A stretch of DNA of 64,000 nucleotides from Escherichia phage Cyrano, in sequence record OV696614; one strand, written 5' to 3'. Both the position numbers and the translations under genes were made by a program. Positions 7,021-64,000 of the stretch are shown here, piece by piece. Under the pieces are notes generated by a model. It did not search any database and was not told where the DNA came from. It saw only the letters and a program-made list of their open reading frames with translations. Positions within the stretch are counted from its first letter, which is position 1; each line of letters starts with the position of its first letter.

Positions 7021-7095
7021 GATGGTGTAGCTCAGTGGTAGAGCAGTTGGCTGTTAACCAACTGGTCGGTGGTTCGAATCCACCCACCATCGCCA
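7021..7095 (+). tRNA. tRNA-Asn (anticodon GTT)
   Basis: Cloverleaf read by hand: acceptor gatggtg/caccatc, anticodon loop ctGTTaa, T-loop ttcgaat, 3' CCA. Confidence 0.85.
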
Positions 7096-7097
7096 AT

Positions 7098-7173
7098 GCC
7101 GGTTTAGCTCAGTTGGTAGAGCACCTGCCTTGTAAGCAGGATGTCAGCGGTTCGAATCCGTTAACCGGCACCA
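7098..7173 (+). tRNA. tRNA-Thr (anticodon TGT)
   Basis: Acceptor gccggtt/aaccggc, anticodon loop ctTGTaa, T-loop ttcgaat, 3' CCA. Confidence 0.85.
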
Positions 7174-7181
7174 ACACAATT

Positions 7182-7268
7182 GGAGAGTAGAGAGCATGGT
7201 GCTCAAGCGGTCTTGAAAACCGTCCCATTGCGCAAGCGATGATGGTTCGATTCCATTACTCTCCGCCA
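7182..7268 (+). tRNA. tRNA-Ser (anticodon TGA), type II with long variable arm
   Basis: 87 nt; acceptor ggagagt/actctcc, anticodon loop ctTGAaa, long variable arm, T-loop ttcgatt, 3' CCA. Confidence 0.8.
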
Positions 7269-8267: not shown

Positions 8268-8822
8268 TCAATCTTCCCTTTGTTTTGGGTAGTGTTGTGT
8301 TCGTATCGCATAGGAAGCTCCGTCATTTAAATAAGTTAGGCCACGCTCTTGTGTAAATCTCTTCACATATCTCTTGTATGTGGCCATCAGTTCTTCGCGT
8401 TCTGCCGCAAAGAATAAAATCTGTATGCCTTCATTGTCGGCAACTTTGAGCATTAAGTCAACTAAAGTACCGTAAAGGTATTGAAGTTCACCTAAAGTAA
8501 GATTAAAAGACCCTTCGGGTTTGGCAAATACGTTAATTGGCTCTTCCGCTCCAAGAGCGACATTCTGGAGCTGTTCTTGCTGCCTGTCAAGTTGAATCAT
8601 GTCCACAAAACTAACGACAGATACACACAACCCATAAACATCAGCACCTAACATATTATGCATAGTTTCTGCGGCAACAGGATCTAAAGAAGGAGGGCAA
8701 AAGACTAAACGGTATCTAGCCTTACGAGCTTCATTGCCAGAGAAAACAAAGTCTATATCTAAATATGACAGATCACCCGGCAATGAAGCCAAACCAGGTG
8801 TAACCAACTTATGCAAGTGCAT
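8268..8822 (-). CDS. hypothetical protein
   Basis: 184-aa minus-strand ORF in a locally reversed segment next to the integrase. Confidence 0.4.
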   Translation of the reverse strand: MHLHKLVTPGLASLPGDLSYLDIDFVFSGNEARKARYRLVFCPPSLDPVAAETMHNMLGADVYGLCVSVVSFVDMIQLDRQQEQLQNVALGAEEPINVFAKPEGSFNLTLGELQYLYGTLVDLMLKVADNEGIQILFFAAEREELMATYKRYVKRFTQERGLTYLNDGASYAIRTQHYPKQRED

Positions 8823-18295: not shown

Positions 18296-18566
18296 AGAAT
18301 TATGGCGCTTGTTGAGGAAGTCACTCCTCTTACGCACTTTGTTTTGCCATGCCGGCAGTTAGCTTCTGCCTTTGACTATTCATGCGGCAACCCCGCATTT
18401 CGCCACAATGGGCAATTCACTTTTATGGAATAAACTGGCCGTTGTGTCGATTTAATTAGCATGGCCTTACCATGCTAATTTATTCAACTTGTACAATCCT
18501 ACAAATCTATCCACTCAGGCTTACACCGTCTTCGTTATTGTAGAAATGAGGATCATCAGCGTTGAA

Positions 18567-18782
18567 TCAGCTTAGAGCAACGACATTTGCTGCTGCTGGG
18601 CCTTTAGCACCATTCTCGATAGAGAATTCGACCTGCTGGCCTTCTTCCAAAGTGCGGAAATTATTACTCTGAATTGCCGAAAAATGTACAAAAACATCTT
18701 TACTGCCATCAGCAGGAGAAATAAAGCCAAAGCCTTTATCAGAGTTAAACCATTTTACTAAACCAGTCATTTTATTAGACAT
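18567..18782 (-). CDS. cold-shock protein, CspA family
   Basis: Start moved to internal ATG giving about 70 aa: [30 protein letters not shown] (RNP1/RNP2 motifs). Confidence 0.85.
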
Positions 18783-19111
18783 AGATATTACCTTCTTAAT
18801 TTTGTGAGCCACATAGTGCGGCGAGAATTTGATCTGTATAGATTGGGACTTACTTAGGCACTTAAGGAGGAGACTCACGAAGAAGGGAAATCAGAAGATA
18901 ACACTGAACTGAGACTGCTTTACTAAAACTGCTTACATAAGGTCTGTCTTGCAAACCAACGATGCTATTAACGCATACCCCTTCTTTTCATGCAACCTTT
19001 ATTTTTCAAAGATAACTAATTTTTGTCACCATTGGTTTAGTAAACGTTAACGAACCAGACGATGCCAGACACCTTTACAGAGAACAGATGCCCGCCAATT
19101 GGCGGGCATCA

Positions 19112-28143: not shown

Positions 28144-28150
28144 TAGCACC

Positions 28151-28634
28151 AACCACTGCGGTGAGTAGTCTGCTCACCGCATTCGTATCCAGCTCATTAT
28201 CCACTGTAGTCAGTAACAAAACCTTCCTACATATCTGCTAACCACTGTAGCGAGTAGACAGCCTTTCATTCGCATCAAACAACCACTATGGTGAGTATTG
28301 GAGTGAGATGTCCAGCGGGTATCCACTATGGTGAGTAAGCCTTTGCTGTTTTCAGTGGATATCCACTCGCCACAGTGGATACGCTCAAAGATGAGGGCGA
28401 CAACAACCACTATAGACAGTAAATTTTCCAAGATACCCAGTGACCACTAACCTCGCAGCCCTTGTTTCATCAGTGTTAGTGATCACTAACATTTAATTCA
28501 GTATTTGCATTCTACTGCCTACAGTGGTTATCAACAGATAACGATACTCACTATAGTGGATAGCGAATTACAGATATAAGTAAGGCTCACTACAGTGGAT
28601 AGTGAGCCTTACTACTAACTACAGTGGTTGGGCT
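28151..28634. repeat. Iteron array downstream of repA (incA-like copy-control region)
   Basis: About 7 copies of aaCCACTRYRGTGAGTA then about 4 inverted copies (ctacagtgg / cactatagtgg). Confidence 0.75.
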
Positions 28635-29688
28635 ATTTGCGAGTCTTTGCCTTGCGCAACTCTTCGAGAAGCGCCAGTTCTTCTTTACTCAACATGACCA
28701 TTTTGCCTTCTTTTTCGTCAGGCACAACGTCGATAATGTCATCTTGATTCTCATCTGGGAGGCTATATTCCGTCTCATCATTATCGATTTTTGTTGATAT
28801 TTGTGCCTGGCGTAACTTTGGCCGCCTATAGTGGATGACGAAGTAGACCGAGTTTCCGCGCTTAACTTCCGTGTAATCGAGATATCCTATCTCTCGCAGC
28901 TGTTCCATAGCCTTTCTTACCGTCGCATTCTGAGTAATAGTGCGACTTGTCAGATTAAGTCTGGCGCGTAAACGGGCTAGTGATATTGGTGCCGGATCAG
29001 GCGGCAAACTTTCAATAAAAGTATAAAGCGCCTGAGCGGATTCTTTTCTTGAGAGTTCGTTTATAGCCCGGAGTTGCAGAAGAACCTTTTTGTCGAACTG
29101 GTAGAGTTCGAAAATCTTGGGATCTGCTTTCAGTTCGACCGTATCGTGCTTGACACTATATTTTGCCGTTTGCACAAGATGCGTTACGTAAAACTCATCA
29201 GAGCCTTTGCTACGGAACGAGATGGTATTTGTGGCAATACGGCTTAGCGAACTGTCCAGGCGTTTGCGTAACTTCGCTGATGACCTGGCGGTCGGAATGC
29301 CACACAGCCTTACAAACTCAACGAACGGCAACGTGACAGTATCGCCAACGACCTTGTGTTTGGCAAACGCGTGGATTATTCCCACCCACGTTTTAAAGTC
29401 GTTATCCATATCAAGCCGAAGGCCAGAGATCCTTATGTCTTCGTACCCTTCGGCTTTTGCCAGAGACAGCTGTTTGAGTTCAGCAGAGGCATCCATAGAG
29501 ACCATTTGCCCCTTTCTTCCTCTGGATGTCGATTTCAGCGTCGGAACGAAGAGGCCCAGACGCATCAAAGCAACAGGCTGAACAGTGTTATTAGTGTTAG
29601 GAACCAACGTAACAACTTCGCCTGTCTTTTTATCTGTTTCTGAAAATGCTTCAACGATCGCTATGTTTTTATTGCCGTTTTCGCTCAT
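28633..29688 (-). CDS. repA: Plasmid replication initiator RepA (P1 RepA-like)
   Basis: 351 aa; flanked by iterons; blocks [54 protein letters not shown] match my recollection of phage P1 RepA. Confidence 0.8.
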
Positions 29689-29732
29689 TCCAAATGTCTC
29701 TTGTTATTCGACGGCTTTGGTGGCCTTTGCTG

Positions 29733-29856
29733 ATTACAGTGGATAGTAGCACTCATCACAGCGGTTATCCTACCGTCTATAGTGGTTTTTCTCCTCTCTA
29801 TAGTGGTTGCTTTGCTCCCTATAGTGGATTATTCGCTCTCTATAGTGGATATCGAT
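29733..29856. repeat. Iteron array upstream of repA (origin/incC-like)
   Basis: ctctatagtggWT units at about 22-bp periodicity. Confidence 0.75.
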
Positions 29857-29898
29857 CATGTCTGAAGGCAGATGGCACAACGGTTTGAGGTGGGCGGG

Positions 29899-29971
29899 GA
29901 TCTTATTGGGTCTTTATGGGTCTCTTTGGTTCTCTTTGTGATCTGAATTACTGGATCGGGCCTGTGGATAA
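29899..29971. promoter_or_regulatory. Origin core elements: GATC sites and DnaA box
   Basis: GATC at about 29899, 29940 and 29954; perfect DnaA box tgtggataa at about 29963-29971; AT-rich stretch follows at about 30040-30110. Confidence 0.6.
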
Positions 29972-30129
29972 AAATCAGAGGATTTCAAGAACAGGTAACT
30001 CTACTCTTCTGTGGATATTTAAGGACATAAGAATCATGACTAAGAGTAGAGTTTAAAATATATCTATGTATATCAGTATGTTAATGAAGAATTAAGTCAT
30101 TAAGTTATCCATAAAAGACAATGTGCTCT

Positions 30130-30235
30130 ACTCTCTACAGTGGATATATACAGCTCTCCAGAGTGGTTGTTTTACTCTTCATAGCGGTTATTCAGCTCTC
30201 TACAGAGGTTTCTTTGCTCTCCATAGTGGATGGCA
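30130..30235. repeat. Second iteron array on far side of origin
   Basis: Five units (ctctacagtgg, ctccagagtgg, cttcatagcgg, ctctacagagg, ctccatagtgg) at 22-bp spacing. Confidence 0.7.
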
Positions 30236-30272
30236 ACACCCTTTCAGACCAGTAACCGCAACGGCTAGAGGC

Positions 30273-58838: not shown

Positions 58839-58995
58839 CCCGTCTCCTTTATTTTAATTTGCGCAATTGTCGCCTTGTAGTGTACTCCAGCTACGACATT
58901 TAATCATTTATGAGAAATGCTGTTATCACATGGCAGACATAAGGCCATTTTGTTACTATCAAGCCCCTTTTCACTACAAAGAAGTAATGCCTACT

Positions 58996-61029
58996 ATGAC
59001 CCAAGTCGCGAAGAAAATTCTGGTGACGTGCGCGCTGCCGTACGCTAACGGCTCAATCCACCTCGGCCATATGCTGGAGCACATCCAGGCTGATGTCTGG
59101 GTTCGTTACCAGCGAATGCGCGGCCACGAGGTTAATTTCATCTGTGCCGACGATGCCCACGGTACGCCGATCATGCTGAAAGCACAGCAGCTTGGTATCA
59201 CACCGGAGCAGATGATTGGCGAAATGAGTCAGGAGCATCAGACTGATTTCGCAGGCTTTAACATCAGCTATGACAACTATCACTCGACGCACAGCGAAGA
59301 GAACCGTCAGTTGTCTGAGCTTATCTATACTCGCCTGAAAGAGAACGGTTTTATTAAAAACCGCACTATCTCTCAGTTGTACGACCCGGAAAAAGGCATG
59401 TTCCTGCCGGATCGTTTTGTGAAAGGCACCTGCCCGAAATGTAAAGCGCCAGATCAATACGGCGATAACTGTGAAGTCTGCGGCGCAACATATAGCCCGA
59501 CTGAATTGATCGAGCCGAAATCGGTGGTTTCTGGCGCTACCCCGGTAATGCGTGATTCCGAACACTTCTTCTTTGATCTGCCTTCTTTCAGCGAAATGTT
59601 GCAGGCATGGACCCGCAGCGGCGCGTTGCAGGAGCAGGTGGCAAACAAAATGCAGGAGTGGTTTGAATCTGGCCTGCAACAGTGGGATATCTCCCGCGAT
59701 GCGCCTTACTTCGGTTTTGAAATTCCGGACGCGCCGGGCAAATATTTCTACGTCTGGCTGGACGCGCCGATTGGCTACATGGGTTCCTTCAAGAATCTGT
59801 GCGACAAGCGCGGCGATACCACCAGCTTCGATGAATACTGGAAGAAAGACTCCACCGCCGAGCTGTACCACTTCATCGGTAAAGATATTGTTTACTTCCA
59901 CAGCCTGTTCTGGCCTGCCATGCTGGAAGGCAGCAACTTCCGCAAGCCGACCAACCTGTTTGTTCACGGCTATGTGACGGTGAACGGCGCGAAGATGTCC
60001 AAGTCTCGCGGCACCTTTATTAAAGCCAGCACCTGGCTGAATCATTTTGACGCTGACAGCCTGCGTTACTACTACACTGCGAAACTCTCTTCGCGCATTG
60101 ATGATATCGATCTCAACCTGGAGGATTTCGTTCAGCGCGTGAATGCCGATATCGTGAACAAAGTGGTTAACCTGGCCTCCCGTAATGCAGGCTTTATCAA
60201 CAAGCGTTTTGACGGCGTGCTGGCAAGCGAACTGGCTGACCCGCAACTGTACAAAACCTTTACTGATGCCGCTGAAGTGATTGGCGAAGCATGGGAAAGC
60301 CGTGAATTTGGTAAAGCTATCCGTGAAATCATGGCATTGGCTGACCTGGCTAACCGCTATGTCGATGAACAGGCTCCGTGGGTGGTGGCGAAGCAGGAAG
60401 GACGCGATGCCGATCTGCAGGCGATTTGCTCTATGGGCATTAACCTGTTCCGCGTGCTGATGACGTACCTGAAGCCGGTACTGCCGAAACTGACTGAACG
60501 TGCAGAAGCATTCCTGAATACAGAACTGACCTGGGATGGCATCCAGCAACCGTTGCTGGGCCATAAAGTGAATCCGTTCAAGGCACTGTATAACCGCATC
60601 GATATGAAGCAGGTTGAAGCACTGGTGGAAGCATCCAAAGAAGAAGTGAAAGCCACAGCCGCACCGGTAACTGGCCCACTGGCTGACGACCCGATTCAGG
60701 AAACTATCACCTTTGACGACTTCGCCAAAGTTGACCTGCGCGTGGCGCTGATTGAAAACGCAGAGTTTGTAGAAGGTTCTGACAAACTGCTACGCCTGAC
60801 GCTGGATCTCGGTGGTGAAAAGCGTAATGTCTTCTCAGGCATCCGTTCTGCTTATCCAGACCCACAGGCACTGATTGGTCGTCACACCATTATGGTGGCT
60901 AACCTGGCTCCGCGTAAAATGCGCTTCGGTATCTCCGAAGGCATGGTGATGGCTGCTGGCCCCGGCGGGAAAGATATCTTCCTGTTAAGCCCGGATGCTG
61001 GTGCTAAACCAGGCCACCAGGTTAAGTAA
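58996..61029 (+). CDS. metG: Methionyl-tRNA synthetase
   Basis: Start set at [26 protein letters not shown] (HIGH motif), KMSKS present, zinc-knuckle CPKC..CEVC, C-terminal tRNA-binding domain; 677 aa. Confidence 0.9.
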
Positions 61030-61535: not shown

Positions 61536-62270
61536 ATGAAAAAGTTGAAAAGTTTAGAAATCCCTGGAACTGGTTATAAATTCTTTATGGACAACGCGGA
61601 GTGTGCACCTAACGCGTTGGAAAAAATACAAAGTCTTATCAACAGCCTTACTGAAGAAGCGAAAGAACTGAAGAGCGAGGCGACAAAGGACAATACAGCT
61701 AAAATCCAATGCTTAAATCTCGTCTCTTATTGTTTATATCAAGTATCCAAAACACTGATTAAAGGCAATATCTATTACGACGATGAAGACACCTCGACAC
61801 CTGAAGAAAAAGATAGCGATGAAGAACTCTATGAAGATATCTCTACTAGTGCGGGTCACGCTGCCTTCGATGCTATGGGTGAATCGTCAGGCATCAGATC
61901 ATTTGTTGAACAGAACAATTCGACAATAATGATTGAGTACTGTGAACAAACAAGCTCCAAGGCCATACATGTTCTTCACGATGTTGCTGCAGGGGTTCGC
62001 TGTGAGGCTGAAGCGGTCAGAAAAGATGTATTTGGTGCAGACAGTAATACCGTGAAAGCGTTTATCAACAGTGCTCTGCTAAATTCTTACTCAAACCTTA
62101 TAGTCAATGCGGCACTATGCGCAAATTCAGGTGAAGAACACATTGTCATAACTGAAACCAAACATGAGCATCAACAGTCACCAACCATAGAAGAGGTAAC
62201 TGCATTGGCTATCAAACAGGCGAGTGAAATTAGTGATGAAATTCTCTCTCTGCTAAACAAAACTAAGTAA
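61536..62270 (+). CDS. hypothetical acidic protein
   Basis: 244 aa; acidic, Ser/Glu-rich. Confidence 0.45.
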   Translation: MKKLKSLEIPGTGYKFFMDNAECAPNALEKIQSLINSLTEEAKELKSEATKDNTAKIQCLNLVSYCLYQVSKTLIKGNIYYDDEDTSTPEEKDSDEELYEDISTSAGHAAFDAMGESSGIRSFVEQNNSTIMIEYCEQTSSKAIHVLHDVAAGVRCEAEAVRKDVFGADSNTVKAFINSALLNSYSNLIVNAALCANSGEEHIVITETKHEHQQSPTIEEVTALAIKQASEISDEILSLLNKTK

Positions 62271-62399
62271 AACATTGATAATGGCGGTCACAATTTGATT
62301 CTTTTCTATAAGAATCCGTTGATCGCCACTACTCCCCTTCCATACCCGCAACCACATCCTTAAATATCAATAAGTTATAGTTGTTTATACAATCAAGAA

Positions 62400-63120
62400 A
62401 ACAACTGAATAACAGATCAACGAAACGTCAACGCTTTCACCCGATTTGGCCTAAAAAATTGACGTTTTCACACATCACTGCTTATACCCGTAATTCTACG
62501 CAGCAGACAGCACCACAGCGTTCAATTTTCACCACAGACGACTCAACACACTACCAACAAAAACACACGCTCAAAATCGCTCCCGTTGCGTTACATAACC
62601 ATATAAACAACTTATTTTCAGGCATAACAAAACAACTAAATAACACATATGCCATTACCCAAAACAACCAACCTCTTTATGGCAGGCTACCGAAAAGACC
62701 CACCTCTTCTTCCCAGGCTACCGGACAACCAACCTAACTTTCACAGGCAATCCGAAAACATTCATACGCGCGATACCCACGACACGCCATTACCCAAACA
62801 GCGAAGAAACACCAGAATCACTGAAACCCCAACGAAGCCTGTAACCGCAAGGTTTCTCTCAATCCCAAAAGACACGAAACATAACAATCACGGGAAACGC
62901 CATTACCCAATACACGAATAACTACAAAAGCCTTTCACACACTCCAGACAAACAACTCAAACACAATAACGAAAGGAATCGCCCACCTGCCATTACTCCA
63001 TACACGGAGAAGAACAATCACCAAAACGACGAGAACACCCCATAGAAGAACCACCGCAAAACTAACGAAACCACATACACCGACAGAGAAAACAACACAC
63101 CCAATTCACCAACAGAAATA
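62400..63120. repeat. Strand-asymmetric A+C-rich noncoding region with dispersed GCCATTACYC repeats
   Basis: Top strand almost devoid of G and T runs; four copies of gccattac(c/t)c at about 62651, 62786, 62899 and 62989. Confidence 0.5.
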
Positions 63121-63329
63121 GTCGCCGTATAGAACGTTCTGGAAGGAGTGAGCATTAACGCCTATAGAGAGGTTGAAACAGATAAAACACGAAGAAAACA
63201 CAACATGTATAGCGAACAAGACAGGTATGTATAAGTGGGGAGGGAAGGAGGGGTGTCGCCTCCTTTTTCGTATTTATTCAACTCCTGATTTTATCCCCCG
63301 TAACACCCCTACGGTCAGCCTTCGGTCCA

Positions 63330-63475
63330 TACAGGGAAAAGGCTGCATCCCGCTACAGAAACGGCTGGGTTGCCTTCGGGGAACGGCTGGAGGTTTTCAG
63401 GGAAACGGTCGAGTTGCCTGTGTGGATTTCGGGAAAAGGCTCGATGCCGGTTCAGGAACGGCGGCGTACCGGTAT
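63330..63475. repeat. G-rich iteron-like direct repeat array
   Basis: About six units resembling cAGGGAAAcGGCTsG at 22-23 bp periodicity. Confidence 0.5.
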
Positions 63476-63789
63476 AGCGTGAGGGAGAGTTGCGGCTACC
63501 CACCTGTAATGTGCGGGAAGAAGAGAGGCGCTCACGTGCAGGCGAACTTACTTACCGCAGGATTCCCTCTGAATGCCCAACTACAGCGTAATTGTGCCAG
63601 ACAGCCAACGGGCCACAATCGATTTCAGTAGGTTTTCGGGGAGATGATTATTCTGCCCACCAGCCACCTTCGGCCACTAAATCAGAATAATGTAAAAAGT
63701 GTACTCGGTACTGAACCTGAAAACTCACTGCCAAAACCACATTCACCGGAATAAAATCCTTTTTCGCCTTTGCGTTATTGCGATAATAA

Positions 63790-63805
63790 CACCATCAAGA
63801 AAACA
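63790..63805. promoter_or_regulatory. Palindromic motif AAACAT-N-TTGTTT (one mismatch)
   Basis: gaaaacatgttgtttaa about 10 nt upstream of the partial gene. Confidence 0.35.
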
Positions 63806-63815
63806 TGTTGTTTAA

Positions 63816-64000
63816 GGATTGCTTTATGTTTGCAAATATCGACATCAACCAAATTAAGAAATTGACTCAAAAAGAGTTTGACCAGTTTTATGAGTTAGAA
63901 GGTTGGTCTTCCACTCTGATTAATTCAAGATGGGTGCTGGAACTGATGACTCGTGATGACGCACCTGCTTTGATGATCAGCGACCTGGGTGAAGATGCTG
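63816..64000 (+). CDS. hypothetical protein (3' truncated by window end)
   Basis: ATG at 63816 read by hand, open to the end of the window. Confidence 0.4.

What the first reader, a model, noticed from the sequence alone, without database searches (positions are those of the whole stretch)
62400..63120. 700-bp noncoding tract with extreme A+C strand bias and dispersed GCCATTACYC repeats
The top strand is dominated by A and C (long runs such as caacaaaaacacacgc and aaccaaaacgacgagaacacc). The ORFs called here translate to low-complexity Thr/Pro/Gln/His strings and are probably spurious. Four copies of gccattac(c/t)c(a)a(w)aca recur at roughly 90-135 bp intervals. Such skew and repeat structure fit a CA-rich regulatory or sponge RNA, a protein-binding platform such as a centromere or pac region, or a replication or packaging landmark.
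Basis: seen in the sequence. Interest (0 to 1): 0.6.

Follow-up and report, generated by a model that had tools for sequence, protein, structure and literature searches.

The report
Conserved gene-less A+C-rich tract, phage-plasmid
A stretch of about 800 bases in an SSU5-type phage-plasmid of E. coli has a top strand made almost only of A and C, codes for no protein and is conserved across hundreds of related plasmids; it most likely acts as naked, unfoldable RNA that stops transcription between two gene blocks, but this has not been shown.

Summary
Window 62,300-63,120 has 74% A+C on the top strand, about 6 sd above the window mean and unique in 64 kb. It holds four exact, same-strand GCCATTACYC boxes.

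The window is collinear with the SSU5-type phage-plasmid Cyrano/pLF82. The tract lies in its longest intergenic gap (1,534 nt), between variable cargo genes and a conserved cluster of small genes. The tract, its composition and its boxes are kept in 49 distinct relatives and in 837 PLSDB plasmids. No reading frame on either strand evolves like a gene.

As + sense RNA the tract is the least foldable sequence in the window; as - sense RNA it is ordinary. Published strand-specific RNA-seq of a Cyrano lysogen shows no + strand RNA over it, although the genes on both sides are expressed.

It is not the RepA plasmid origin, is not next to par or terminase genes, matches no Rfam family and lacks the known sponge motifs.

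Best guess (confidence about 0.3): an untranslated, unstructured, C-rich/G-poor RNA tract where host Rho loads, acting as a transcription insulator. The conserved boxes would bind an unknown factor. The rivals are a lytic-phase decoy RNA and a DNA-level protein platform. The function is inferred, not demonstrated.

The parts
62282..62327 (.). Imperfect palindrome or hairpin (GGCGGTCA...TGATCGCC with inner GATTCTT/AAGAATC) just after the stop codon of the upstream gene. It marks the left edge of the conserved noncoding block. It may protect the 3' end of, or terminate, the upstream mRNA.
   Evidence: Folds to -19.1 kcal/mol (+ sense) and -20.3 (- sense), z -5.5 and -6.4 against shuffles. Nearly invariant in 10 relatives, while the sequence to its left differs between clades.
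62394..62495 (.). Highly conserved block. It holds the half-motif AAGAAAACAAC, two TCAACG direct repeats, and an inverted repeat CGAAACGTCAAC (62421-62432) / ATTGACGTTTTC (62458-62469). A promoter-like TTGACG-N18-TATACC has a poor -10 element.
   Evidence: Conservation 0.89-0.93 over 49 relatives. The inverted-repeat arms were found. The promoter scan did not call it. This block also survives in truncated remnants next to IS elements.
62300..63120 (+). The A+C-rich, G- and T-poor tract itself.
   Evidence: Skew and composition. 300-nt + sense RNA folds at -30 to -45 kcal/mol against a window mean of -80.5 (sd 12), and the 8 least structured windows are all here; the - sense is ordinary. All 15 top C/G ratios for 78-nt windows on the + strand lie in 62,291-62,931.
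62605..62617 (.). One copy of the genome-wide palindrome AAACAAnTTGTTT (operator-like), here AAACAACTTATTT. Its direction is undetermined.
   Evidence: The window has 16 sites with up to 2 mismatches, against 4.0 in shuffles; most lie 15-75 nt upstream of + strand gene starts. This copy is invariant in 10 relatives. A position matrix built from the gene-proximal sites scores it only on the - strand (23 bits against at least 31 for true sites).
62659..62750 (+). Three tandem repeats of about 30 bp, with cores ACC(C/A)ACCTCTT and CAGGCTACCGAAAAG.
   Evidence: family D1, spacing 31 and 30 bp. The first two units are nearly invariant in all clades; Klebsiella keeps two. Conservation 0.87-0.94.
62651..62660 (+). 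GCCATTACCC box 1.
   Evidence: Orthologous copies in all clades.
62786..62795 (+). GCCATTACCC box 2.
62899..62908 (+). GCCATTACCC box 3.
62985..63040 (+). Box 4 (GCCATTACTC at 62989) with its extension CATACACGGAGAAGAACAATCACCAAAACGACGAGAAC. This is the best-conserved segment of the tract.
   Evidence: Nearly invariant in the 10-sequence alignment. It is the only part that megablast still matches to SSU5. An exact pattern from it recovered 52 IMG/VR loci.
63242..63275 (+). Terminator-like hairpin (GGAAGGAGG...CCTCCTTTTT) followed by a T-rich tail.
   Evidence: Called by the pattern scan, but 3 such sites were found against 2.4 expected. It is more stable in + than - sense in 25 of 25 variants, yet no better than shuffles (z -1.3, +0.2, -1.1), and the T-tail is lost in the SSU5 clade. 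Weak evidence.
63333..63466 (+). Six iteron-like direct repeats with core (C)AGGGAAA(A/C)GGCTGG. The five starts found by pattern search (63,333-63,430) are 22, 22, 22 and 31 bp apart; the sixth copy, near 63,452, was read by eye.
   Evidence: No stable or covarying RNA fold on either strand. A second array of the same motif lies 3.3 kb downstream in relatives (L001 10555-10720).
63775..63813 (+). Expression signal of the downstream gene: an extended -10-like TGCGATAAT inside the palindrome TTATTGCGATAATAA, then the palindrome AAACATGTTGTTT, with the ATG at 63827.
   Evidence: second-highest matrix score.

Best explanation
The tract is a conserved, untranslated spacer that works as + sense RNA. 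When RNA polymerase reads rightward out of the cargo genes (or starts inside the gap), it makes about 0.8 kb of RNA that is nearly all A and C. Such RNA cannot base-pair. It offers almost no NUG start codons or Shine-Dalgarno sequences, so it stays free of ribosomes, and it is C-rich and G-poor.

That is the substrate on which the host termination factor Rho loads. Rho would then stop transcription inside the gap. Exonucleases would trim the RNA back to the stable hairpin at 62,282-62,327, and a terminator-like hairpin at 63,242-63,275 would back this up.

The tract would therefore insulate the conserved downstream cluster of small genes, each with its own promoter/operator signal, from the cargo genes that are expressed in the lysogen. 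The GCCAUUAC boxes and the 30-nt repeats would be binding sites for an unidentified factor that modulates this, for example by relieving it in lytic growth.

Shown: the composition, conservation, lack of coding, strand-specific lack of structure, and the absence of steady-state + strand RNA in lysogens. Inferred: transcription into the tract, the involvement of Rho, the insulating role, and the role of the boxes.
For: 1. C/G is about 2.7 over 620 nt, and all 15 top-ranked 78-nt C/G windows on the + strand lie in 62,291-62,931.
2. The + sense RNA is the least foldable in 64 kb (-30 against -80.5 +/- 12 kcal/mol per 300 nt), while the - sense is ordinary. Any selection on single-strandedness therefore concerns the + strand.
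3. There is no coding signature on either strand.
4. All flanking genes are on the + strand, and the gap is the longest in the window.
5. In strand-specific RNA-seq of the collinear Cyrano lysogen, the upstream gene CYRAN_102 is about 6x background (log2 5.6-9.2). CYRAN_103, which covers 62,381-62,737, is at the floor (2.32) in LB and at most 4.3 elsewhere. The downstream CYRAN_105 reaches 5.5-7.8 in the four non-LB conditions. Transcripts vanish at the tract while both neighbours are on.
6. The position is conserved at the junction between variable cargo and conserved genes.
7. Composition is kept at 0.64-0.71 A+C in 48 of 49 distinct relatives despite 30-40% sequence divergence.
8. From established knowledge rather than tests here: rut sites are C-rich, G-poor and unstructured, and Rho acts on untranslated RNA. 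Rho-terminated RNAs are trimmed back to upstream hairpins. Rho-dependent terminators sit in the immunity leaders of the plasmid-prophages P4 and N15.
Against: - No transcript through the tract has been seen, so its sense is inferred.
- The RNA-seq drop occurs within 110 nt of the stop codon, so hairpin a alone could be the terminator.
- 800 nt is far more than a rut site needs.
- T is depleted as strongly as G, and YC dinucleotides are not enriched (82 against 95 in mononucleotide shuffles). This is not typical of rut sites.
- Rho loading does not explain the invariant boxes, the 30-bp repeats, the TCAACG repeats or the operator-like palindrome.
- The closing hairpin is not better than shuffles, and the terminator scan is at chance level.
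Confidence: 0.3

Rival explanations
1. A dedicated lytic-phase noncoding RNA that acts in trans. The gap would be a gene-less transcription unit, repressed in lysogens. Its 0.6-0.8 kb naked A/C-rich RNA with 4-6 GCCAUUAC boxes would soak up a host or phage single-strand RNA-binding factor. Candidates are Rho itself, a ribonuclease toxin, GU-rich small RNAs such as GcvB, or a phage RNA-binding protein.
For: The boxes are all in one orientation, have variable spacing and tolerate indels between them, as expected for independent sites on a flexible RNA. An operator-like palindrome of the type found in front of most phage genes lies 32 nt upstream of the first box. A terminator-like hairpin closes the unit. 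Silence in lysogens is what a repressed lytic unit would show. The tract is extremely unstructured in the + sense. From my own knowledge: prophage-encoded anti-sRNA sponges such as AgvB exist.
Against: There is no convincing + strand promoter. Block b lacks a usable -10 (and by reading the sequence), and the matrix built from gene-proximal signals scores the palindrome only in the - direction. No RNA was seen in five conditions, including macrophage infection, where neighbouring genes rise. Known sponge motifs (GGA, ARN, AANAANAA, ACA) do not exceed the dinucleotide expectation. No complementary partner of the box exists elsewhere in the window. There is no Rfam match.
Confidence: 0.2
2. A DNA-level platform for several proteins, such as a lytic replication origin or a regulatory or looping hub. 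The boxes, 30-bp repeats, TCAACG repeats, palindrome and 22-bp iteron-like array would be protein-binding sites on duplex DNA. The strand bias would reflect a need for one unstructured single strand (helicase or SSB loading) or long exposure of the G+T strand as single-stranded DNA.
For: Five different repeat families are packed into 1.5 kb. The six 22-bp-spaced GGGAAA(A/C)GGC repeats look like iterons and show no RNA structure. A second array of the same motif flanks the small-gene cluster 3.3 kb away and is conserved in Kluyvera and in a metagenome-assembled genome. The phage carries its own replisome and T4-type recombination genes (UvsW, UvsY, gp32-like, RNase H) according to the published annotation. 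The lytic origin of this family has not been mapped (no paper found).
Against: Proteins that bind duplex DNA do not need 800 bp of strand-asymmetric composition. The tract is not AT-rich (GC about 0.44, like the genome), so it is not a typical unwinding element. Box spacing is not in helical phase and is not conserved. Cumulative GC skew rises monotonically around the genome with no turning point here. The RepA iterons are a different sequence 33 kb away. No rep, par or terminase gene is adjacent. For R-loop priming by + strand transcription the RNA would be C-rich, which, from my own knowledge, disfavours R-loops.
Confidence: 0.25
3. No present function for the skew. The tract would be a by-product of strand-asymmetric mutation (for example leftward transcription exposing the G+T strand) or decayed remains of former gene leaders, with only a few embedded protein sites under selection.
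For: Half-copies of the leader motif AAGAAAACAAC occur at 62,395 and 62,626. Leaders of some phage genes are locally A/C-rich. A<>C changes are frequent, roughly as composition predicts.
Against: The skew is about 6 sd from the window mean, and other intergenic DNA of the same genome is unbiased (0.513). It is kept at the same level in three clades 30-40% apart, with many invariant blocks. Its sign is opposite to the genome-wide coding-strand skew. A mutational skew of this size is not known in bacteria (my own knowledge).
Confidence: 0.08

Closest known systems
Rho-dependent terminators and rut regions in phage leaders (lambda tR1; the immunity leaders of the plasmid-prophages P4 and N15). 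Recalled from the literature, not tested here.
   Same: Untranslated, C-rich/G-poor, unstructured RNA downstream of a gene, followed by hairpins. It lies in a temperate element at a boundary between genes expressed in the lysogen and genes that are silent.
   Different: It is about ten times longer than a rut site and is depleted in U as well as G. It carries conserved repeated boxes. No antisense or processed small RNA partner was found. Dependence on Rho is untested.
Protein-sequestering sponge RNAs (CsrB/RsmZ for CsrA; CrcZ for Hfq/Crc) and prophage anti-sRNAs (AgvB)
   Same: Noncoding, with several same-sense copies of a short motif spread along an accessible RNA.
   Different: The GGA and AANAANAA motifs are not enriched. 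The RNA is not detected in lysogens. It is far longer than AgvB-type sponges. No own promoter is established. There is no Rfam match.
Iteron-type origins and dispersed-iteron systems (RepFIB/P1 oriR; P4 ori/crr octamers)
   Same: Short direct repeats in one orientation. The adjacent array with 22-bp spacing resembles iterons.
   Different: The RepA iterons of this plasmid (CTCTCTATAGTGGATA, 21-bp period) are a different sequence at 28.1-30.3 kb. There is no adjacent initiator gene. The box spacing is irregular (41-142 bp).
Tobacco mosaic virus omega leader (G-poor, CAA-rich, three ACAAUUAC repeats). A resemblance recalled from memory only.
   Same: A G-poor, A/C-rich unstructured RNA with a repeated 8-mer of similar sequence (ACAAUUAC against GCCAUUAC).
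   Different: Omega is 68 nt long and sits directly before a start codon as a translational enhancer. Here the tract is 800 nt long with no conserved ORF behind it. The likeness is probably a coincidence of composition.

Membership tests
Rho-dependent terminator (rut region) | C-rich, G-poor stretch of at least 60-80 nt with little secondary structure | tested here: met
   C 0.325 and G 0.119 over 621 nt. All 15 top-ranked C/G 78-nt windows on the + strand lie in 62,291-62,931, and the 300-nt MFE is -30 against -80.5 +/- 12 kcal/mol.
Rho-dependent terminator (rut region) | The RNA is not translated | tested here: met
   No 3-nt periodicity of substitutions in any candidate ORF, frames broken in relatives, and indels that are not multiples of 3.
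Rho-dependent terminator (rut region) | The region is transcribed in the C-rich sense | tested here: inconclusive
   The flanking genes are all on the + strand, but published RNA-seq shows + strand signal at the floor over 62,381-62,737. This fits both termination with trimming and no entry at all.
Rho-dependent terminator (rut region) | 3' ends or read-through depend on Rho (bicyclomycin, rho or nusG mutants) | not testable with these tools
   This needs an experiment or a dataset with bicyclomycin on a strain carrying the plasmid.
Sponge RNA (CsrB/RsmZ, CrcZ type) | Abundant discrete transcript | tested here: not met
   At the floor in five conditions of a collinear lysogen. Full lytic induction was not sampled.
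Sponge RNA (CsrB/RsmZ, CrcZ type) | Multiple copies of the known binding motif (GGA in loops; AANAANAA; ARN repeats) | tested here: not met
   GGA 4 observed against 5.1 expected, AANAANAA 2 against 2.3, and (ARN)x4 0 against 1.0 in dinucleotide shuffles. A different motif (GCCAUUAC) is repeated.
Any curated RNA family (Rfam 15) | Covariance-model match | tested here: not met
   Nothing in the gap at gathering threshold. Only chance-level hits at E of 0.66 or more in the permissive search.
IncFIB RepA iteron origin | RepA iterons and adjacency to repA | tested here: not met
   The iterons CTCTCTATAGTGGATA, with a 21-bp period, flank repA at 28,150-30,250. They are a different sequence, 33 kb away.
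Partition centromere (parS/parC) | Repeat array next to its parA/parB operon | tested here: not met
   On the Cyrano map parA is at 29.3 kb and the tract at 94.4 kb of 108 kb. In PhiR41_1 parA is at 73.2 kb and the tract at 30.6 kb.
pac/cos packaging site | Location in or next to the terminase genes; defined genome ends | tested here: inconclusive
   The small terminase gene starts about 14 kb downstream, which argues against this. No virion-end data are available.
Type I toxin or small hydrophobic ORFs on the G+T strand | A conserved reading frame under purifying selection | tested here: not met
   For the two - strand ORFs open in most relatives, variable states by codon position are 34/35/26 and 39/34/42. 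The start codon is absent in Klebsiella, and truncated variants exist. By my own estimate, open frames of this length are expected by chance in a strand this poor in A.

The most novel reading that the evidence does not exclude
The gap is a gene-less lytic unit whose only product is 0.6-0.8 kb of naked, C-rich, box-studded RNA. This RNA traps the host termination factor Rho, or another host protein that binds single-stranded RNA (for example a defence ribonuclease). It would switch off host termination or defence in trans: an RNA counterpart of protein Rho inhibitors such as P4 Psu.
Probability: 0.1. Interest if true: 0.8.

Novelty: new variant of a known kind. Interest (0 to 1): 0.5.

Why it matters
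SSU5-type phage-plasmids are common in clinical Escherichia, Klebsiella, Salmonella and Enterobacter. This region alone matched 837 PLSDB plasmids. They carry resistance and other cargo genes at exactly this position.

The tract is their longest conserved noncoding region. It is left unannotated or carries spurious ORFs, and the paper searches run here found no study of it. If it is the barrier between cargo expressed in the lysogen and the silent phage genes, it explains how new cargo can be inserted there without waking the phage, and it gives a handle on the lysogeny/lysis decision.

If it turns out to be a decoy RNA or the lytic origin, it fills a gap in a poorly studied phage family. Either way, an 800-nt sequence selected to be nearly free of G and T on one strand is an unusual object, and it is easy to test.

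Tried and rejected
- Rfam at gathering and permissive thresholds: nothing.
- Tandem Repeats Finder: nothing.
- Structured RNA in the GC-rich part at 63,225-63,720: z +1.0 on both strands and covariation term -0.11. Rejected.
- Hairpin f as proof of + sense transcription: it is more stable in + than - sense in 25 of 25 variants, but no better than shuffles, and its register shifts between clades. I treated this as a composition effect.
- Block b as a sigma-70 promoter: it is not called by the scan and lacks the conserved final T of the -10 element.
- The palindrome in the tract as a + strand phage-type promoter: the matrix scores it only on the - strand. Its direction is left open.
- Antisense partner for the boxes: none in the window. 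The duplex folding against the highly expressed CYRAN_43 locus was not informative.
- Hfq, CsrA and MazF-type motif enrichment: none beyond composition.
- Coding on either strand, including hydrophobic peptides on the - strand: rejected.
- RepA origin: rejected.
- Genome-scale skew inflection: none.
- Large Klebsiella plasmids with partial matches: these are remnants truncated by IS or Tn elements and are uninformative.
- Distant relatives through the downstream 131-aa protein: this found only the same family (13 proteins; 3 loci in Kluyvera and a metagenome-assembled genome), all with the same architecture. It therefore gave no test of whether the composition survives where sequence similarity has been lost.
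- Literature: no paper on this region, on SSU5 lytic transcription or on its lytic origin. One preprint could not be opened. The pLF82 accessions are not in the collections.
- A link between the nearby FljA-like regulator and the boxes, through a resemblance to the start of fliC: seen in one box of one clade only. Dropped as a coincidence (one search gave no binding site).

Full report
**Observation.** The top strand between about 62,300 and 63,120 is strongly enriched in A and C. In 200-nt windows the GC skew is -0.41 to -0.52 and the AT skew rises to +0.63. Bases 62,500-63,120 are A 0.411, C 0.325, G 0.119, T 0.145, against 0.283/0.220/0.239/0.258 for the window. Over all 300-nt windows of the 64 kb, A+C has mean 0.503 and sd 0.041. 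The tract reaches 0.76, and every window above 0.64 lies in it. GCCATTACYC occurs exactly four times in the window, all on the + strand, at 62,651, 62,786, 62,899 and 62,989. By my arithmetic about 0.24 exact matches are expected by chance. It missed three tandem repeats of about 30 bp at 62,659-62,750, and it missed that the gene-free gap is 1,534 nt long (62,271-63,804), the longest in the window.

**What the window is.** The region is 96% identical to Escherichia phage CMS-2020a, 92% to PhiR41_1, and distantly related to Salmonella phage SSU5. Gene coordinates published for the LF82 phage-plasmid Cyrano (pLF82), minus 32,000, fall on start codons in the window for 64 of 66 + strand genes. 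The window is therefore collinear with that element. Upstream lie cargo genes: a UmuD-like gene, mrp/apbC, a full-length metG, and a coiled-coil protein ending at 62,270. Downstream lies a cluster of small genes of unknown function, all on the + strand.

**Conservation.**
- A distant search of PLSDB found the 1.5-kb region in 837 plasmids of Klebsiella, Escherichia, Enterobacter, Salmonella, Citrobacter and Cronobacter. Most have no gene annotated under it.
- In ten representatives of three clades, 60-74% identical to the window in the tract, the gap lies at the same place. The gene to its left differs and the genes to its right are conserved.
- All ten keep the A+C bias and 2-6 GCCATTAC boxes at mostly orthologous positions.
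- Forty-nine distinct sequences, including IMG/VR contigs, show A+C of 0.64-0.71, except one whose upstream flank differs.
- Two Kluyvera genomes and one metagenome-assembled genome show the same architecture.
- Conservation peaks at the hairpin at 62,282-62,327, at block 62,394-62,495, at the 30-bp repeats, and at box 4 with its extension.

**Noncoding.** The long + strand ORFs, annotated as CYRAN_103 and as a hypothetical protein in PhiR41_1, are not kept in other clades. Variable states by codon phase are flat (165/148/153 and 114/128/126). Two short - strand ORFs that are open in most relatives are also flat (34/35/26 and 39/34/42), lose their start codon in Klebsiella and occur truncated. 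Indels of 1, 2 and 23 nt separate the clades. Open frames are expected here because stop codons need T plus A or G.

**Anatomy of the gap, left to right.**
1. A significant palindrome or hairpin right after the stop codon (z -5.5 and -6.4 in the two senses).
2. A conserved block with TCAACG repeats, a 10-11-bp inverted repeat 27 bp apart, and a promoter-like pair of hexamers with a poor -10.
3. The A+C tract. It holds one copy of a palindrome AAACAAnTTGTTT, the three 30-bp repeats and the four boxes.
4. A terminator-like hairpin at 63,242-63,275.
5. Six GGGAAA(A/C)GGC repeats spaced mostly 22 bp apart.
6. The expression signal of the next gene.

The palindrome turned out to be a genome-wide signal. 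The window has 16 sites against 4 in shuffles, and most lie 15-75 nt upstream of + strand starts, including those of the helicase, parA and terminase genes. The GGGAAA(A/C)GGC array has a twin 3.3 kb downstream, on the other side of the small-gene cluster, and the twin is conserved in distant relatives. The GC-rich part shows no stable or covarying RNA fold, so these repeats look like DNA sites.

**A strand-specific physical property.** Folded as + sense RNA, 300-nt pieces of the tract reach only -30 to -45 kcal/mol, against -80.5 +/- 12 for the window. The eight least structured pieces of 638 are all in the tract. As - sense RNA the same pieces are ordinary, at -59 to -77 against -77 +/- 12. 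All 15 top-ranked C/G ratios in 78-nt windows on the + strand lie in 62,291-62,931. Other + strand intergenic DNA of this genome is unbiased (A+C 0.513). The tract is therefore not just a long version of an ordinary leader.

**Transcription.** The published RNA-seq of LF82 is strand-specific. CYRAN_102, just upstream, is about 6x the prophage background. CYRAN_103, which covers 62,381-62,737, is at the floor in LB and at most 4.3 (log2) in the other four conditions. CYRAN_104 is low. CYRAN_105, downstream, reaches 5.5-7.8 in the four non-LB conditions. Steady-state + strand RNA is thus absent from the tract even when both neighbours are on. The - strand cannot be judged from the table.

**Exclusions.**
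- The RepA iterons of the plasmid origin are a different sequence at 28.1-30.3 kb.
- parA and the terminase genes are far away.
- Cumulative GC skew rises monotonically around the reconstructed genome with no turning point here.
- Rfam has no match.
- GGA, ARN, AANAANAA and ACA motifs do not exceed the dinucleotide expectation.
- The box has no complementary partner elsewhere in the window.
- The closing hairpin is more stable in + than - sense in all 25 variants, but it is no better than shuffles and the terminator scan is at chance. I do not count it as evidence of direction.

**Mechanism.** A bias of one strand towards A+C leaves the properties of the duplex largely unchanged, but it changes the single strands a great deal. 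The A/C strand cannot pair with itself. As RNA it has almost no NUG starts, no Shine-Dalgarno sequences and few stops. The property is extreme only for the + strand, the neighbouring genes are all + strand, and + strand RNA disappears exactly here. I therefore think the tract most likely works as + sense RNA: a long, ribosome-free, unfoldable, C-rich/G-poor stretch. From established knowledge this is what Rho needs to load. Rho would end transcription coming out of the cargo genes, and the RNA would be trimmed back to the hairpin at 62,282-62,327. The tract would insulate the downstream cluster, whose genes carry their own promoter/operator signals. I give this 0.3.

The model does not explain the invariant boxes and repeats, the excessive length, the equal depletion of T, or the lack of YC enrichment. 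The upstream hairpin alone could also account for the RNA-seq drop.

The rivals are as follows:
- A lytic-phase decoy or landing-pad RNA (0.2). The same-sense boxes and the silence in lysogens favour it. The absence of a convincing promoter and of any detected RNA weakens it.
- A DNA-level platform such as the lytic origin or a looping hub (0.25). The five repeat families and the paired iteron-like arrays favour it. It does not explain the strand bias and has no support from skew or gene neighbourhood.
- A functionless mutational or decayed tract (0.08). The size of the bias and its conservation contradict it.

**Comparison with known systems.** The tract works most like a Rho-dependent terminator region in a phage leader, but membership is unproven because transcription sense and Rho dependence are untested. 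It is not a member of the CsrB/CrcZ type of sponge, of any Rfam family, or of the RepA iteron origin. It is not placed like a centromere or a pac site. A resemblance to the G-poor, CAA-rich omega leader of tobacco mosaic virus, with its ACAAUUAC repeats, is recalled from memory and is probably compositional.

**Novelty.** Searches of the held literature found work on SSU5-type phage-plasmids but nothing on this region, on their lytic transcription or on their lytic origin. I rate it as a new variant of a known kind, with moderate interest. The object is unusual, widespread and easy to test, but its function is inferred.

Noticed in passing
window 80, 1495, 11105, 26595, 38326, 46969, 48549, 49278, 53818, 61114, 61165, 62605, 63801; L001 5597, 5648, 7875, 8359, 9264, 10029; L064 7677, 7702, 35105, 38039, 39454: A palindrome AAACAAnTTGTTT (up to 19 bp as AGAAAACAAnTTGTTTTCT) recurs 15-75 nt upstream of many + strand genes, usually after an AT-rich -10-like element. 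The genes include those for helicase, primase, parA and the small terminase. The window has 16 sites against 4.0 in shuffles. It looks like the operator or promoter signal of a phage-wide regulator.
   Followed up: partly
window 63333-63466; L001 10555-10720; L065 4208-4327 and 8287-8309; L066 4275-4393 and 7586-7608: Two arrays of GGGAAA(A/C)GGC direct repeats, mostly 22 bp apart, flank the cluster of small + strand genes about 3.3 kb apart. They are conserved in distant relatives. They look like iterons or operator arrays for an unknown protein and show no RNA structure.
   Followed up: partly
window 58867-61029 (+), with mrp/apbC and a umuD-like gene upstream (L001 1794-5512): The phage-plasmid carries a full-length methionyl-tRNA synthetase next to a divergent mrp/apbC gene. 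As far as I recall (not checked here) this is the arrangement of the E. coli chromosome, so it looks like captured host DNA. A UmuD-like gene is also present.
   Followed up: no
window 18542-18960 (-): A full-length Rfam match to the cspA thermoregulator 5' UTR (187.6 bits). A cold-shock-type leader lies inside an 848-nt gap of the phage-plasmid.
   Followed up: no
window 7021-7268 (+): Three adjacent tRNA genes: Asn-GTT, Thr-TGT and Ser-TGA.
   Followed up: yes
window 28150-28630 and 29730-30250: More than 20 RepA-type iterons (core CTAYAGTGGATA, 21-bp period) lie on both sides of repA. This is the plasmid origin and its control arrays.
   Followed up: partly
window 8268-8822 (-): A 184-aa ORF (CYRAN_43 in the published annotation) is reported at 723x the prophage background in lysogens, by far the most expressed gene of the element. 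Its function is unknown, and it lies next to the integrase and repressor genes.
   Followed up: no
whole window; e.g. 63657-63664 (- strand); L001 10705 (+ strand): The window holds 13 Chi octamers (GCTGGTGG) on both strands, against about 2 expected by chance. One lies about 190 bp right of the first GGGAAA(A/C)GGC array. In PhiR41_1 another lies inside the second array, in the opposite orientation.
   Followed up: no
L001 12612-13130 (-): About 5 kb downstream of the tract, the annotated 'transcriptional regulator' is a full-length match to Pfam Flag1_repress (FljA, repressor of phase-1 flagellin; 230 bits). To my knowledge members of this family act on mRNA.
   Followed up: partly
window about 62271-62280 (left edge of the conserved block); A1 columns 1-100: Sequence conservation between clades begins abruptly at CCGTTGACATTGGCGG. 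The gene to the left differs between relatives (DUF262, DUF4942, coiled-coil and other hypothetical genes), so this is a cargo insertion junction. IS- and Tn-truncated copies of the first 100-330 nt occur in large Klebsiella plasmids.
   Followed up: partly
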